From IMG/VR virus record IMGVR_UViG_3300033997_000235, positions 1-63,585 of that record: a DNA stretch of 63,585 nucleotides. One strand, written 5' to 3'. Below, one piece after another: positions 10,701 through 11,805 of this stretch; position 1 is the stretch's first letter, and the number at the start of each line of letters is the position of its first letter. The stretch is from a virus. The notes beneath the pieces are model-generated. The model was not told where the DNA came from and did no database searches. It was given only the letters and a program-made list of their open reading frames with translations. Both the position numbers and the translations under genes were made by a program.

Positions 10701-11352
10701 CAGCGCCCGCGGAAGCCGCAGCAGCGCGCCGCGGGTCGACCTCGCGATCGATCTGGTCCATAGTGCCGCCGGCGATCACGGCGCCCTCACCACCAGCGCC
10801 AGCAACAATGGCTTGCCGCGCGGCCTGGCCAGCAGTCGCTGGACTCGCGATCAGTCCAGCAGCACGCCCACCGACCAGCGCACCGCGACCAATGGCACCA
10901 CCCGCCAACATCTGCGGCAGCGATTCAGCCACCAGGCCAGCAACGTTGCCAGGATTGCTCGCGTAGGCGCCGGCGATATCCAGCGCATCGCCCTCTTCCC
11001 AGGCCTGCTCAATCTCAGCGGTACCTTGCTGGCGTTGCGGGCTGTATTCCTGCCGAGCCTCTTCCTGCCACTTGCTCGGCTGGAAGCCAGTCGCCTCGCC
11101 GATCTTGTCGGCAGTCTCGTCGACGACACGTCGGCCAGTGAGCGCACCGACACCTACGTCGGCCAGGCCAGTGACGACGCCTGGTAGCTGCTGCACGCCG
11201 CGCTTGAGGTCGGTACCCAGGTCGCCGAGAAGAGATTTGTTCTGCTCAGCGGGTTTGTCAGTCGCCGGAGCCCCGTCGAACTGATCAAAGAAGTTGCCAG
11301 ATCCCGAACTGCCAGAATCAGCAGCATCGAACTGGTCAAAGAAGTTTGCCAT
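1702..11352 (-). CDS. Giant multidomain 'polyvalent' virion-associated effector protein, about 3,216 aa. Contains a ParB-like domain, an R-S-E ADP-ribosyltransferase, two HExxH modules, a YHGS-type ART-PolyVal-like domain and a large unknown C-terminal module.
   Basis: Single uninterrupted frame 1702..11379. Preferred start is ATG 11352 behind GGAGGG. Motifs read: SLRPTQ..VLDGHHQW; LYR/TTT/AESEVLL; FGFRGVEFGNWV..SLAHEWFHALD; QHEVLGH; NGKPSKLT..FKRWFGDW; EPLVVYHGSPNEFSVFD. Last gene of the virion operon. Confidence 0.8.
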   Translation of the reverse strand: MANFFDQFDAADSGSSGSGNFFDQFDGAPATDKPAEQNKSLLGDLGTDLKRGVQQLPGVVTGLADVGVGALTGRRVVDETADKIGEATGFQPSKWQEEARQEYSPQRQQGTAEIEQAWEEGDALDIAGAYASNPGNVAGLVAESLPQMLAGGAIGRGALVGGRAAGLIASPATAGQAARQAIVAGAGGEGAVIAGGTMDQIDREVDPRRAAAASAGAGVAGAALSGFGARLAQRMGLIDVESALAGGVGQVAGQTPGLARRVAGGALTEGVLEELPQSVQEQMLQNWAEQKPLMEGVPRAAVEGTLAGSAIGGAVNVARRPSEQMGLDPAAGPLSAAAATAVDGAPTGSQTPVQDAVRQSMLSGAPDTQPGGRYEPISQQLAIAQELFPADLDENGNLRFFRYDQDLQTMVEVPEAEALAAARRQLDTWAQQGFDPQDARGLDELVPQVDELPEQPPLATVESDTGPQQVEQIEQPLPLPTVESDTGPMSVEQVQPTPVAGDPNFEIRVQKNGRPFRGERDVRLLGLFNQLQREGESPIIVPHEGGWAVAVPREPVPPPAPLGLPAPSTMVVDSQGNAQRGATAPFVEPGAQVRPIGGPGMERQAPVGRRPVTDMSRDNGRDSSVTFARDLQGDDLGSGWVGFNQQSGSLGVPRADMPQIRADHRGAMVNFMNARGVTHEEQTVPARSLRPTQAEFSPERVGRAAAREGTERSILVSGDGYVLDGHHQWLAQREAGGDVKVIRLNAPMAELLPLAREFPSSFTDQASQEVQGADSRPGPVNDRAAGDTPAVPDAADNVAREPVLAERPDISFEDLAKSVFLSEEQRAAVRDYNDAKGREAFDMPAGLSATLMGAADSNRTKNAITLYRANGRQSNSNTDALNERATRFAERPLIPTTTDRKHAISFGGFSSGQFELQEINVEPGVGIVPIYEGNAAESEVLLRSDDVEIVRTGFRQLGEEDARREFGEMVSEPVDIASYVVRPIQNKIEQVKPAASENASPAAYGQRALSEQPAADQPAASEEAVPAQANDQAQDLPEILATPRKRYIERQAKAAGIKKGSPGYDQAIRRLQDQYEADVDRASAGITFEQYNELNSDSPEGVNRQAWEALREEYGAESEAQASPVQAPAASSQPKVIEDAGEKLGGARKDELRGVRERLDSMDDAAIANSTLSQLWPKDEINRIKDQFHAASYQVVRDIIPAKPRVPYKVRVWVDKVKAAREILKNLADIGADATVPKMREFSPGLRPIADKIELLMGIDRGQWGRIGRVGVASGKYNDGGTMVPGSWVEVEIDGSRKHFFGKKNVADALSDIRSAINLGSAPESRMKFSIYTDRSSGEVFIAKDGDKEMRRLKTFGDAKAARAFLADQHGELVTAWDAVKNRDNVTKADMRRDTNDERTGRNYRNGADITPEQFLEVFGFRGVEFGNWVSQGAGGADRQGLLNQAYDSFMDLAEVVGVPPKALSLGGRLGIGFGSRGRGRASAHFEPSNIVINMTKTRGAGSLAHEWFHALDNYFARQRGGEVPMERGVNAQQAYRNNNFITYRPEPLYVHKTQRSSPMSLAKLQRYREQNPDAEYFNPDNWQVDPRHPTGVRPEVERAFAELVDVLDQSPMARRSANLDKSPDAYWSQIIERGARAFETYVIAKLADQGYRNDYLANVRTLEQFVRSADRYPYLTPDEQGPVSDAFDKLFSTVQTRVDDDGAVVMYSRNSYRRAPEQGQGARAGQLRIAMKVLTGAWQNAPDVKVVQSIKDLPDRQRRQVERDGAFDVEGIFADGQVYLVADNLRDARHAAFVLQHEVLGHAGLQGAYGQRLTPLLMSIYNGNADMKSQADALVRRFNYKPAVAMEEVLADMAGTGSIQQQAFWPRLVTAMRNALRSIGFNMRWTEGDIQGLLANARAYIENGRRRAGTREAFSRDGRSGMGAEIVDEQGRLLAPNGKPSKLTQKQWHQARGENFKRWFGDWQAVAAEARLANLSPVRIRVPDGWRNLSIKELRAKAKQALDAIVKSRVPLMNDDIGEVSISRNKGVNKFISEGADPAKLLMAEDLRSAFKRAVYSSSRAPKDPSAEPNVAAFEKLLAKVSVADTELVAIFTVQRLKDGSAQFYNAMLVDPEIREGREETPAVSPRDTPIAGERATSAHTGVTDFVRRPLERVNPGDVSKLTDGNGEPLVVYHGSPNEFSVFDQARAGESTGHSIAPLGIFLTADQQHARGHAENVSGGSPGSASVMPLFASIKNPYRMSVADSQAIDTPQAAIEMRQKLEREGYDGIQLGDTGTWVAFYNSQVKSATNNTGAFDEIDPDIRYSRASQRDTEALRKLGLAGSEAQNLLDQVRNLTLGSLQAKLKDWSVRSEEGIFDGLAGIRRAEEAVGVTDVNQQGYVSARMASGIADVMHGVLHYAAPEWRDGIVSGKAGTRGVLEILGDLGADNLTPWLAWLGGKRAQLLKAQGRENNLTDTEIAELVAMGQGKEELFEKVYREYAQVNDAVLDLAQEAGLIDQDARAKWLTDYYVPFYRQDESEGIFTAPRSKRGLSHQTAAIKALKGGTLPTNDLLANMLAGWTKRIDAAMKNKALLEVVDNLQGSDYLTDESPRWQQVLISRDQIAQQIRKDRKALALAADLLDLPAGSNVIKVLNQLMKPESEGFEKLWTRVAPTDHDIVRVQRDGKSEYYRVNDESLLRGLKFMEGSVFNDPITKIGRTFKRILTTGVTASPDFILRNFIRDAAHAWVINKDGFTLGKDSLKGMRDALREDQDYRDLMFAGGSFQGGYVHGADPEASAQIIRRALEKKGFTRTQQDAYLGSLVNTPAKAAAMIGKGWQKYRELGDKVENANRLSTYKAAIAAGKSRRQASFEAKDLMDYSLRGNFAAAQWFTDVVPFLNARLQGLYKLGRAVKGDKTLLAKEVAMKGGYIALFSLMLAGLNDDDERYQALMDWDKDMHWHIFLGDEHFRIPKPFELGLIFGTVPERILHALTGTQDGGDLAKAVSRGVFDTLAFNPVPQFYQPIRELQANRNFFRDSPIEDMSDEGKLPEARYDERTSAIGRALGQVTGPIAGLSPKQVDHLIAAYTGTLGQYVLDMSSLVANSLSDAERPASRSGDIPILKVIYQGDSPRSTKYQSEFYDMMREADQLHRTIKSYREEGRVDAAEQLMAANREKLRHRPALGFARKQLGNVRNQMDAVYRDTRMTPEQKRQRLDALQRQSNQIAERIVKLAGGDF

Positions 11353-11360
11353 CCCGCCCT

Positions 11361-11386
11361 CCAAAGAAAATCCCGCCATAGCGGGA
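11361..11386 (-). terminator. Hairpin plus T-run immediately upstream of the giant gene RBS (intrinsic terminator or attenuator on the minus strand)
   Basis: Minus strand reads TCCCGC-TATG-GCGGGA followed by TTTTCTTTGG, then GGAGGG and the ATG. Confidence 0.55.
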
Positions 11387-11413
11387 GTTTCAGAGGTCCG
11401 GCGATTGCGGCCT

Positions 11414-11428
11414 AACCCTACAGGGGGT
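11414..11428 (-). repeat. Late-region intergenic motif, copy 1 (minus strand ACCCCCTGTAGGGTT)
   Basis: Plus strand AACCCTACAGGGGGT. 62 nt upstream of the giant gene start. Also abuts the -35 of the plus-strand moron promoter. Confidence 0.8.
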
Positions 11429-11469
11429 TACCGATTGCGCACGGCATGTCATAGGGCTATAACGCCAGG

Positions 11470-11805
11470 ATGAAGAAGCTGATCATCACCACCGCACTTC
11501 TGGCCACCTCCAGCCTTGCCAATGCTGGAGACTTCGCCACCTGCCTACTGGATAGCCTGCCTGGACTAGAAAATGACCTTGCGGCATCAGCCGCCGTGAC
11601 CGTCTGCAAGACTGAGCACCCAGGCGGTCTTGAGTCCGTACCGGCCGGATCAGGTCGGGGTATGCTGTCGTTCAAGTCAGGCGCCGAGTGCGCCCTGAAC
11701 AAGTCAGGGAACACCAGAAGCCGGGATGCGGCCTACATGATCAGGGCAGCCTGCAACAGGCTTTACGACGAACCCAACTTCTTCGATCAGTTCGACGGCT
11801 CTTAA
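11470..11805 (+). CDS. Secreted (periplasmic) 111-aa protein with four Cys and a C-terminal NFFDQFDGS; opposite-strand moron inside the late operon
   Basis: Sec signal peptide MKKLIITTALLATSSLANA/GD. Candidate promoter TTGCGC-N17-TATAAC at 11435-11463. Atypical codons (cta, gga, aga, agg). Confidence 0.75.
   Translation: MKKLIITTALLATSSLANAGDFATCLLDSLPGLENDLAASAAVTVCKTEHPGGLESVPAGSGRGMLSFKSGAECALNKSGNTRSRDAAYMIRAACNRLYDEPNFFDQFDGS

What the first reader, a model, noticed from the sequence alone, without database searches (positions are those of the whole stretch)
11272..11805. The NFFDQFD peptide is shared by the giant protein N-terminus (twice) and the C-terminus of an opposite-strand periplasmic moron protein
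The giant protein starts MANFFDQFD...GSGNFFDQFDG (nt 11326-11346 and 11272-11295, minus strand). The only plus-strand gene inside the late region (11470..11805) encodes a protein with a canonical Sec signal peptide and four Cys, and it ends ...EPNFFDQFDGS (nt 11776-11799). It has its own sigma70-like promoter (TTGCGC-N17-TATAAC, possibly a leaderless transcript). At DNA level the copies are near-identical 24-mers in inverted orientation about 480 bp apart. One hypothesis is that the motif docks the incoming ejected protein to a periplasmic or inner-membrane host factor, and that the lysogen secretes a small decoy carrying the same motif. That would be superinfection exclusion by motif mimicry. 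Alternatively it could be a capsid-targeting or assembly signal, or less likely a recombination substrate that swaps N-termini.
Basis: partly seen in the sequence, partly recalled or inferred. Interest (0 to 1): 0.7.

Follow-up and report, generated by a model that had tools for sequence, protein, structure and literature searches.

The report
Periplasmic mimic of ejected-protein leader
A prophage makes a small secreted protein whose tail copies the short motif that heads its giant injected virion protein, and the two change together across dozens of phages, which points to a previously undescribed decoy that probably blocks entry of rival phages.

Summary
NFFDQFD occurs three times in the six-frame translation: twice at the N-terminus of the 3216-aa giant polyvalent virion protein and once in the tail of the opposite-strand, signal-peptide-bearing four-Cys protein "S".

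The motif itself is not conserved in relatives, but it co-varies. In 27 of 29 loci (Pseudomonas, Comamonadaceae, cultured F116-like phages) the S tail matches the twofold "leader" motif of its own giant, across at least 8 unrelated motif classes. S cores 94-96% identical carry different tails, each matching its own giant. Synonymous codons differ as codon usage predicts, so selection acts on the peptide, not on DNA or RNA.

The twofold leader is universal in this giant family and behaves as a swapped about 35-aa cassette. S is an accessory moron with a conserved promoter giving a leaderless transcript. Some S tails carry their own class plus a foreign one.

Best reading (about 0.58, untested): a periplasmic decoy that competes with the incoming giant's leader, giving class-specific superinfection exclusion. 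The docking partner is unknown. Candidates are the co-varying C-terminus of the preceding virion protein or a host factor. LKA5, F116 and PA8 allow a direct test.

The parts
1702..11352 (-). Giant polyvalent internal virion protein (3216 aa). It carries LPD5, LPD1, LPD3, ART-PolyVal and LPD38 domains and is the counterpart of the very large virion protein of F116-like podoviruses.
   Evidence: Pfam and PHROG hits. Start codon and SD read from the sequence. Hardies 2016 (PMC4819975) identifies H66 gp60 as a virion protein and a T7 IVP-D homologue.
11245..11352 (-). Leader cassette of the giant (aa 1-36): two copies of NFFDQFD (nt 11326-11346 and 11275-11295) separated by a Gly/Ser-rich linker. 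It is hypervariable between close relatives.
   Evidence: The L031 giant is 97% identical over the next 224 aa but only 24% identical in the leader. A twofold leader motif is present in nearly all of about 60 giants examined.
11371..11386 (-). G+C-rich hairpin followed by a T-run, directly upstream of the giant's Shine-Dalgarno sequence (terminator-like). Its DNA is conserved in relatives.
   Evidence: Conserved in-frame read-through 'PAIGGIFFLEGGM' upstream of the giant start in L002, L009, L010, L013 and L016. blastn between L001 and L023 keeps this segment at 98%.
11435..11463 (+). Promoter of the small gene: -35 TTGCGC (11435-11440), 17-nt spacer, -10 TATAAC (11458-11463). The ATG lies 6 nt further on, so the mRNA is probably leaderless.
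   Evidence: Hexamers are conserved and the spacer is divergent in the window, L002, L001 and L005. The generic consensus scan does not call it.
11470..11805 (+). Small gene S (111 aa). Sec signal peptide aa 1-19 (nt 11470-11526), four-Cys all-helical core aa 20-100, and a flexible C-terminal tail aa 101-111 (nt 11770-11802) carrying NFFDQFD (nt 11776-11796).
   Evidence: AlphaFold2 gives core pLDDT above 90 and a low-confidence tail. Weak NCBIfam match to the VF_A0006 four-cysteine family. The family has 501 representative clusters.
11802..13880 (-). Pre-giant virion protein (692 aa), transcribed just before the giant. Its stop codon overlaps the stop of S. The type of its last ~45 aa (about nt 11805-11940) co-varies with the leader class.
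   Evidence: The C-terminus does not itself resemble the motif (permutation p = 0.29).

Best explanation
S is a prophage-encoded, Sec-exported, disulfide-stabilised helical carrier. It displays on a flexible C-terminal tail a copy of the short linear motif that occurs twice in the about 35-aa N-terminal leader of the phage's giant ejected protein.

Shown:
- The tail and the leader are kept matched at the peptide level through repeated, independent switches of motif class.
- The leader is a universal, hypervariable cassette of this giant family.
- S is an accessory moron with its own conserved promoter.
- Some tails add a motif of a foreign class.

Inferred:
- During infection the giant's leader must dock in the periplasm on a partner. 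The partner is either the class-matched C-terminal ~45 aa of the preceding internal virion protein in the trans-envelope ejection conduit, or a host envelope factor.
- In a lysogen, periplasmic S presents the same motif in excess, occupies that site, and so blocks ejectosome assembly or DNA entry of incoming phages with the same leader class. This is superinfection exclusion by motif mimicry.
- Escape by leader swapping, followed by re-matching of decoys, drives the diversification of the cassette.
For: (1) The motif is present at three places only in the window.

(2) The S tail matches its own giant's leader in 27 of 29 loci, across the classes NFFDQFD, DLFDEFG, C-LAxEFGL-C, GLFDDLK, LKPFxGxLD, GPWxxY, NPFxDPxYG and KPWEEF. 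The summed own-pair score is 822 against 464 +/- 41 for shuffled pairing, with 0 of 100000 shuffles reaching it. At class level only 1 of 5040 permutations does.

(3) The co-switches are independent of core phylogeny. L007 and L010 cores are 96% identical (NFFDQFD versus DLFDEFN). L001 and L023 are 94% identical (DLFDEFGL versus C-GPW-C). L009/L016 and L039/L055 behave the same way. blastn shows the S core and the flanks are homologous, while the tail patch and the leader are replaced separately.

(4) Selection is at the peptide level. The same codon is used at 96 of 188 identical-residue sites, against 100.5 +/- 6.5 expected.

(5) Periplasmic display. The signal peptide and four Cys are conserved. 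The model has a confident helical core and a floppy tail. Many tails present the motif inside a Cys-X7-10-Cys loop.

(6) S is accessory and the leader is universal. In S-less loci the pre-giant gene abuts the giant (gap 0-16 nt in about 18 loci). S-bearing loci have 0.4-2.7 kb of morons there. Within Hollowayvirus S is present in LKA5-type phages and absent in F116, H66 and PA8.

(7) Dual-class tails combine the phage's own class with a foreign one: L076, L078, and L079 by inference.

(8) L017 and L018 are 98.7% identical over 9.6 kb but differ in the leader alone, as an escape event would look.

(9) One strain carries two such prophages, of different classes (L009 and L013).

(10) Literature. 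The giant of F116-like phages is a virion protein homologous to T7 gp16 (PMC4819975). The N-terminal region of N4 vRNAP is involved in injection and its C-terminal region is required for encapsidation (PMC5512222). P22 SieA and T4 Spackle show that exclusion proteins target ejected proteins.
Against: - There is no experimental or expression data, and exclusion is pure inference.
- Excluding one's own type partly duplicates repressor immunity, although that is also true of known Sie systems.
- In L022 the tail motifs (NFFGQFD and DLFDEFD) only loosely resemble its own leader (GLFDDLR). In L018 there is no match.
- Some family members have no tail motif at all (L012, P0087, P0107, P0130). The conserved core may therefore have a function of its own.
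- The partner is unidentified. The correlation with the pre-giant C-terminus is confounded by physical adjacency and is broken in L018.
- Whether the leader is ever exposed to the periplasm is inferred only from T7 and N4 analogies.
Confidence: 0.58

Rival explanations
1. The tail is a targeting tag and the core is the effector. The tail only delivers S to the incoming ejection complex, or to the leader's partner. The conserved four-Cys core then does the inhibiting, for example by plugging the conduit or inhibiting an ejected enzyme. This would still be superinfection exclusion, but not pure competition.
For: The core is strongly conserved while the tails vary. The family has 501 clusters, including tail-less and long-fusion members. 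T4 Spackle is a small periplasmic protein that inhibits an ejected enzyme.
Against: The core has no similarity to any known inhibitor or fold. No lytic enzyme domain was detected in the giant's N-terminal part or in the pre-giant protein. Dual-motif tails fit either model.
Confidence: 0.2
2. The motif has a role in the phage's own cycle, and S is a helper rather than a blocker. For example it could be a periplasmic factor that senses or modulates superinfection or lysis timing, in the manner of T4 RI. Or it could prime the envelope for the phage's own ejection proteins, using the same docking site as the leader.
For: Tail-leader matching shows only that the two share a partner, not the sign of the effect. 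S lies inside the late operon region.
Against: S is absent from many close relatives that have the same leader (F116, H66, L027-L031), so it is not needed for the cycle. It is transcribed against the late operon from its own sigma70-like promoter. Foreign-class motifs in tails have no role in a self-directed function. A helper made only after DNA entry cannot assist that entry.
Confidence: 0.1
3. The match is a by-product of the DNA. The inverted repeats would be kept alike by gene conversion, serve as an inversion or recombination substrate, or pair as RNA in the late transcript to regulate translation of the giant. The peptide identity would then have no function.
For: In this window the arms are 24 nt at 96% complementarity, 478 nt apart.
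Against: - Across 15 loci synonymous positions agree no more than codon usage predicts (96 of 188 against 100.5 +/- 6.5).
- Many pairs differ by conservative amino-acid changes (LFDEFG versus LLDEFG; LTPFSGKLD versus LKPFDGALD).
- In Hollowayvirus the small gene lies 2.3 kb away, beyond another gene, and still matches.
- The two mRNAs carry the same sense of the motif, so they are not complementary.
Confidence: 0.03
4. The leader is a capsid-targeting or assembly signal, like the T4 internal-protein CTS, and S merely shares ancestry of that segment.
For: N-terminal acidic and aromatic peptides target T4 internal proteins to the prohead (my own knowledge, not tested here). The leader class co-varies with the adjacent internal virion protein.
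Against: S has a conserved cleavable signal peptide, four invariant Cys and often a disulfide-looped motif, so it acts outside the cytoplasm where capsids assemble. In N4 the encapsidation determinant is C-terminal and the N-terminal region serves injection (PMC5512222). Shared ancestry cannot explain repeated co-switching. An assembly role for the leader could still coexist with the decoy model.
Confidence: 0.07

Closest known systems
T4 Spackle (Sp), a periplasmic superinfection-exclusion protein
   Same: It is a small, phage-encoded, Sec-exported periplasmic protein that acts on a protein delivered by the incoming virion (PMC7677548, listed).
   Different: Spackle is a folded inhibitor that binds the gp5 lysozyme domain. 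It does not copy a motif of its target and has no class-switching tail. S shows no fold or sequence similarity to anything in the PDB or BFVD.
P22 SieA, and HK97 gp15 from my own knowledge: prophage exclusion proteins that target ejection proteins or the tape measure
   Same: It is prophage-expressed and blocks DNA delivery of related phages. [quoted passage not shown]
   Different: [quoted passage not shown] S is soluble and periplasmic (cleavable signal peptide, no transmembrane segment) and carries the target's own motif. Its specificity is readable from the sequence.
Giant internal virion proteins: N4 vRNAP gp50, T7 gp16 (IVP-D), H66 gp60, and polyvalent proteins
   Same: The window's giant has the polyvalent-protein domain set and sits in the same genomic position as H66 gp60 and LKA5_059.1. 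For N4, the N-terminal region serves injection.
   Different: A twofold, hypervariable N-terminal leader cassette was not found described for any of these in the papers searched.
VF_A0006 family four-cysteine protein (NCBIfam NF041602 / Pfam PF28034)
   Same: Four conserved cysteines and a small size. HMM match E = 4.7e-11 over residues 72-104. The precomputed Pfam hit is marked faint.
   Different: The score of 42 bits is below the curated cut-off of 65, and only about a third of the model aligns. The family has no known function, and no paper was found.
Colicin and pyocin intrinsically unstructured translocation domains with short Tol/Ton-binding boxes (my own knowledge)
   Same: A disordered N-terminal segment with short linear motifs separated by Gly/Ser-rich linkers, at the head of a large protein that must cross the envelope.
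   Different: There is no sequence relation. Here the motif is duplicated and varies among phages of one host genus, which argues against a single conserved host receptor.

Membership tests
Polyvalent proteins (Iyer et al. 2017) | One very large polypeptide that combines several disparate LPD and enzymatic domains, encoded among virion genes | tested here: met
   LPD38 2.8e-44, LPD5 3.7e-23, ART-PolyVal 6.7e-22, LPD1 and LPD3. The gene lies at the end of the late operon.
T7 IVP-D / N4 gp50-type ejected internal virion protein | Present in virions and ejected into the cell. Homology to the IVP-D segment. | not tested
   This rests on the literature for H66 gp60 (PMC4819975) and on synteny with LKA5_059.1. 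There is a weak PHROG hit to virion RNA polymerase (phrog_2206, 8e-11). No proteomics or direct profile comparison was done here.
VF_A0006 four-cysteine family (NF041602 / PF28034) | HMM score at or above the curated cut-off (65 bits) | tested here: not met
   42.3 bits, E = 4.7e-11, partial alignment 72-104. My Pfam copy lacks the model. The precomputed hits are 'faint'. S is a distant relative at best.
Sec-exported periplasmic protein | N-terminal signal peptide with a positive n-region, a hydrophobic h-region and an AxA cleavage site, no lipobox, and no further transmembrane segment | tested here: met
   MKKLIITTALLATSSLANA|G. The pattern is conserved in 20 homologues although the sequence diverges. 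The residues before Cys25 (F-A-T) do not fit a lipobox. Four Cys are invariant. No dedicated predictor was available.
Moron (accessory, independently transcribed prophage gene) | Own promoter, orientation or position that interrupts an operon, and presence/absence among close relatives | tested here: met
   Conserved -35/-10 footprint. S is convergent with the late genes. It is absent in L027-L031, F116, H66 and PA8, and the pre-giant gene abuts the giant where S is absent. No own terminator was found.
Superinfection exclusion system | Expressed in the lysogen and blocks a post-adsorption entry step of incoming phage | not testable with these tools
   This needs expression and plating or DNA-entry assays. 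PADLOC has no model that hits S.
T4 Spackle-like inhibitors | Sequence or fold similarity to Spackle, and a lysozyme-domain target | tested here: not met
   Foldseek against the PDB gave 0 matches and against BFVD none below E = 3.9. No lysozyme or transglycosylase domain was detected in the giant or the pre-giant protein.
P22 SieA-like inner-membrane exclusion proteins | Integral inner-membrane protein | tested here: not met
   After the signal peptide the model is a soluble helical domain with no hydrophobic segment.

The most novel reading that the evidence does not exclude
F116-like and related temperate podoviruses carry a hypervariable 'ejection code'. It is a swappable N-terminal twofold motif on the giant injected protein, possibly keyed to the C-terminus of the preceding internal virion protein. 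Prophages read and jam this code with a modular periplasmic decoy whose tail can be re-programmed, or stacked with several motifs, to exclude chosen classes of rivals. That would be a sequence-readable, class-specific exclusion and kin-discrimination system, and a new way to predict which phages a lysogen resists.
Probability: 0.45. Interest if true: 0.92.

Novelty: new variant of a known kind. Interest (0 to 1): 0.85.

Why it matters
If the decoy reading holds, three things follow.

- It would be the first exclusion mechanism that works by copying a short linear motif of an ejected virion protein, and its specificity could be read directly from sequence. That would let one predict resistance of Pseudomonas lysogens to F116-like phages, which are transducing phages relevant to CF isolates and to therapy.
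- It would show that the extreme N-terminus of giant polyvalent or IVP-D-type proteins is a functional, fast-evolving determinant of genome delivery. That gives a handle on the poorly understood ejection step of these podoviruses.
- It would assign a role to an uncharacterised four-Cys family of about 500 clusters that is left unannotated in most deposited Hollowayvirus genomes.

Even if exclusion is wrong, the peptide-level co-evolution of a periplasmic protein with a cytoplasmically made virion protein demands a shared partner and is new.

Tried and rejected
- DNA-level explanation (gene conversion, inversion substrate, long-range RNA pairing): rejected. Synonymous sites agree only as codon usage predicts. 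In Hollowayvirus the matching genes are 2.3 kb apart with another gene between them.
- A third motif copy in the pre-giant C-terminus ('AAEFDQKYG', seen): rejected. Own-locus similarity between the C-terminus and the leader is no better than shuffled (p = 0.29).
- Phylogenetic inertia or simple co-inheritance: rejected by near-identical cores with different tails and by separate replaced patches.
- S core binding its own tail (autoinhibited receptor): not supported. The tail has low pLDDT and is not docked, and the core does not vary with class.
- Lipoprotein or spanin reading of S: the residues before Cys25 do not fit a lipobox.
- Searches that gave nothing:
  - blastn of the region against phage genomes
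  - tblastn of the giant N-terminus against phages
  - Pfam and PHROG for S and PADLOC
  - Foldseek against PDB and BFVD
  - literature searches for FDQFD, VF_A0006, polyvalent protein with exclusion, and Hollowayvirus with superinfection
  - the phiC725A paper, which has no immunity or exclusion data
The proposed docking could therefore not be modelled.

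
Full report
**1. The observation**

The window is a temperate phage or prophage of about 61% G+C. It has an integrase at 187..1422, a large terminase at 34447..36063, a portal at 32141..34450, a major head protein at 29599..30891 and an endolysin at 26570..27121.

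- Giant protein. The late genes run on the minus strand and end with a 3216-aa protein at 1702..11352. It carries LPD5, LPD1, LPD3, ART-PolyVal and LPD38 domains, which makes it a polyvalent protein. It begins MANFFDQFDAADSGSSGSGNFFDQFDGAP.
- Small protein S. A 111-aa plus-strand ORF at 11470..11805 lies between the giant and the preceding 692-aa virion gene (11802..13880). It has a classical signal peptide (MKKLIITTALLATSSLANA|G), four Cys, and the C-terminus EPNFFDQFDGS.
- Chance. A scan of all six frames finds the heptapeptide at these three places only.

**2. Relatives: the motif is not conserved, it co-varies**

S has homologues in Pseudomonas, Comamonas, Delftia, Acidovorax, Dechloromonas and metagenomes. 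A profile search finds 501 representative clusters. The core is conserved, with four invariant Cys, but the C-terminal tail is not.

Reading the gene neighbourhoods showed that each tail matches the twofold N-terminal motif of the giant encoded next to it.

| Class | Giant leader | S tail | Loci |
|---|---|---|---|
| NFFDQFD | two copies of NFFDQFD or NYFDQFD | NFFDQFD, NYFDKFD | window, L002, L007, L034, L035, L039, L042 |
| DLFDEFG | MADLFDEFGI...DLFDEFGL | DLFDEFG[IL], DLFDEFN | L001, L003, L008, L009, L010 |
| LAxEFGL | MSKLADEFGL...SLAEEFGL | C-SALAQEFGLD-C | L004, L013, L025 |
| GLFDDLK | two copies | GLFDDLK | L005 |
| LKPFxGxLD | LKPFQGELD...LKPFDGALDGE | LTPFSGKLDGE | L011 |
| GPWxxY | MAGPWEQYG...GPWSDYG | NPGPWCNYK, DGPWRKYQ | L016, L023, L017, L055 |
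| NPFxDPxYG | NPFTDPDYG...NPFADPDYG | NPFADPNYG | L019, L050 |
| KPWEEF | MADTSKPWEEF...EKPWEEFGG | EEKKPWEEYQN | LKA5, E220 |

The last class comes from cultured P. aeruginosa F116-like phages (Hollowayvirus), where the small ORF is unannotated in most records.

In all, 27 of 29 loci with both genes match. L022 matches only loosely and L018 does not match.

**3. Statistics and controls**

- Pairing test. The best 7-mer BLOSUM62 score between each tail and its own leader sums to 822, against 464 +/- 41 for shuffled pairings. None of 100000 shuffles reaches the observed value. With one representative per class, only the true pairing among 5040 permutations reaches the observed sum.
- Not co-inheritance. 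S cores that are 96% (L007/L010), 94% (L001/L023) and 80% (L009/L016) identical carry different tail classes, each matched by its giant. blastn between such pairs shows that the S core and the flanking genes are homologous. The tail plus the adjacent pre-giant C-terminus is replaced as one patch and the giant's leader as a separate patch.
- Not DNA-level homogenisation. At 188 sites where the tail and the leader share an amino acid with degenerate codons, the same codon is used 96 times, against 100.5 +/- 6.5 expected from local codon usage. The two leader copies compared with each other give 51 against 48.8.

The near-identical inverted 24-mers in this window are therefore what identical peptides and codon bias produce. 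Inversion, gene conversion and RNA-pairing readings are not supported.

**4. The leader is the primary feature and S is an add-on**

Giants of this family found in metagenomes and viral contigs almost always start with two copies of a 6-10-aa motif, usually aromatic and acidic, separated by a flexible linker. A conserved segment follows (QNxSLxGDLGTDLKRGVQQLPG...). Well over a dozen kinds were seen, among them AEDFLD, SQIDDFLDG, TDWERGTF, FDPFAE, GVFDDLIP and WGENDKIV.

- Cassette behaviour. The L031 giant is 97% identical to the window's over the next 224 residues but only 24% identical in the leader. L027 and L030 are 93-95% against 31%.
- Frequency of S. Only 9 of 44 viral-contig loci have S within 4 kb.
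- Insertion site. Where S is absent the pre-giant gene usually abuts the giant, with a gap of 0-16 nt in about 18 loci. Where S is present the gap is 0.4-2.7 kb and often holds other morons such as pRha/P63C or KilA-N.
- Hollowayvirus. LKA5, phiC725A, F1Pa, JBD90, E220 and Atpa001 have S. F116 and H66 have the same leader but lack S. PA8-type phages have another cassette and another small membrane gene in the slot.
- Promoter. S has a conserved -35/-10 pair with a divergent spacer, placed so that transcription should start at the ATG.

**5. What S looks like**

AlphaFold2 with the family alignment gives a confident all-helical core (pLDDT above 90 for residues 21-100) and a low-confidence tail. 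Foldseek finds nothing similar in the PDB or BFVD. NCBIfam gives only a sub-threshold match to the uncharacterised 'VF_A0006 family four-cysteine protein'. PADLOC has no hit.

Many tails place the motif between two extra cysteines (C-SALATEFGLN-C, C-EKNDPGPW-C). This would give a disulfide-constrained loop in the oxidising periplasm.

Tails of the 150 best family representatives mirror the repertoire of giant leaders, including SEIDRFLGG, EVEDFLDAA, QIDWDKGVMSAPP, [VI]YDPF and GLFDDLIP.

Several tails carry two motifs of different classes.
- In L076 and L078 the tail is GLFDD[IL] plus C-GPW-C, the own giant has GPW-type leaders, and the pre-giant C-terminus is the GPW-associated type.
- In L079 the tail is PFSGELD plus C-GPW-C, next to a pre-giant C-terminus of the LKPF-associated type.

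These tails therefore display the phage's own class plus a foreign one.

**6. A third co-varying element**

The type of the last ~45 aa of the pre-giant protein tracks the leader class across different backbones.

| Pre-giant C-terminus | Leader class | Support |
|---|---|---|
| ...AAEFDxKYGxGxAAR... | NFFDQFD | 5 of 5 |
| same type | NPFxDPxYG | L019 |
| ...AEVEQTAKARGISxDEVIxxL..GVxV | [DN]L[FL]DEFG, LAxEFGL, GLFDDL[KR] | all loci seen |
| ...GYRFKGG[DN]PxxxxNWxKV | [GK]PWxx[YF] | all loci seen, including LKA5, F116, L056, L076, L078 |
| ...G[KR]PVY..A.G.RF... | LKPFxGxLD | including S-less L031 |
| AEYEALPKGTQYMKDGQLRVKG | WGENDKIV | PA8 |

The C-terminus does not resemble the motif itself (p = 0.29). 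It is therefore a candidate lock rather than another key.

Two caveats apply. In S-less genomes the two segments are contiguous DNA, so linkage alone could produce the correlation. And L017 and L018 are 98.7% identical over 9.6 kb yet differ in the leader alone (GPW against ISYEDAF), with the same pre-giant C-terminus and the same S.

**7. Mechanism**

Established knowledge:
- In F116-like podoviruses the very large protein is a virion component homologous to T7 internal virion protein D (gp16), fused to domains that act inside the cell, like N4 gp50 (PMC4819975).
- In N4 the N-terminal region serves injection and the C-terminal region serves encapsidation (PMC5512222).
- Exclusion proteins that target ejected proteins are known. 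P22 SieA has escape mutations in gp16 and gp20 (PMC10883804). T4 Spackle is periplasmic and binds gp5.

Putting this together, the best-supported reading is that the giant's leader must dock in the periplasm during genome delivery. S, made by the prophage and exported, presents the same motif and competes for that site, so it excludes phages of the matching class.

This reading accounts for:
- peptide-level matching and the periplasmic carrier
- disulfide-looped display of the motif
- the accessory distribution of S and its own promoter
- own-plus-foreign dual tails
- leader-only swaps, as in L018
- two prophages of different class in one strain (L009 and L013 from P. paralcaligenes MRCP1333)

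The co-variation, the architecture and the distribution are shown. Exposure of the leader in the periplasm, expression in the lysogen, competition and the identity of the partner are inferred. I put the decoy reading at about 0.58. A variant in which the tail only targets an inhibitory core gets about 0.2. The rest goes to a self-directed helper role, a pure assembly signal, or DNA-level artefacts.

**8. Novelty**

I found no description of the twofold leader cassette, of the S family's function, or of exclusion by motif mimicry. If it works as proposed it belongs functionally with superinfection exclusion, but by a mechanism and with a modular, readable specificity that are not described. I therefore file it as a new variant of a known kind.

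The cultured set gives an immediate test. It comprises LKA5 and phiC725A (S present), F116 and H66 (same leader, no S) and PA8 (other leader).

Noticed in passing
window 11371-11386 (minus strand), plus the T-run to about 11362: A terminator-like G+C hairpin with a T-run sits immediately upstream of the giant's Shine-Dalgarno sequence. Its DNA is conserved in relatives even where the flanking leader and morons differ. It may insulate the giant from moron transcription or require antitermination.
   Followed up: partly
L074 (F116, NC_006552) about 1100-1260: The annotated F116 p59 start hides the real N-terminus. MADTSKPWEEFASQQPVTGGEKPWEEFGGETK is in another frame and joins the annotated frame after an apparent frameshift. 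This is a sequencing error or a genuine split.
   Followed up: partly
L071 6953-7303 (LKA5), and the same slot in phiC725A, E220, F1Pa and JBD90: The S homologue is not annotated as a gene in most deposited Hollowayvirus genomes. In LKA5 only predicted promoters and terminators are annotated over it.
   Followed up: yes
L075 3604-3795 (PA8 gp67): In PA8-type Hollowayviruses the S slot holds a different 63-aa minus-strand gene with an N-terminal signal-like segment and a C-terminal hydrophobic segment. It may be another envelope-acting moron.
   Followed up: no
L017 versus L018 (Acidovorax and Comamonas MAGs): The two prophage segments are 98.7% identical over 9.6 kb and differ essentially in the giant's leader only (APWKKYD/GPWSRYE against ISYEDAF twice). 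This looks like a very recent cassette swap.
   Followed up: partly
L009 and L013 (Pseudomonas paralcaligenes MRCP1333, two contigs): One strain carries two prophages of this kind with different leader and tail classes (DLFDEFG and LAxEFGL).
   Followed up: no
L012 about 1194-8539 (Dechloromonas denitrificans): Here an S homologue without any tail motif lies after the C-terminal end of a polyvalent protein and next to the integrase, which is another moron position. L015 has an S homologue among HTH, PD-(D/E)XK and NADAR genes.
   Followed up: partly
L017, L018, L019 (S at 5947-6696 and 5875-6645): The S homologues are longer, 249-256 aa, with an extra domain inserted between the four-Cys core and the motif-bearing end. 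The representative set has many members of 200-390 aa, some ending in a recurrent C..MTD.D...CG motif.
   Followed up: no
window 54296-56041 and 56835-58643 (plus strand): There are two large DNA methyltransferase-like genes in the early region. The first shares a segment with polyvalent-protein PHROGs. RecE-like and recombination-exonuclease genes lie at 48456-50243 and 51888-53039.
   Followed up: no
L003 4802-5941 and L010 4869-5894: Some loci carry a roughly 340-380-aa minus-strand gene (MTINIAVATRDAIILGCDSLSS...) among the morons between S and the giant. Its function was not examined.
   Followed up: no
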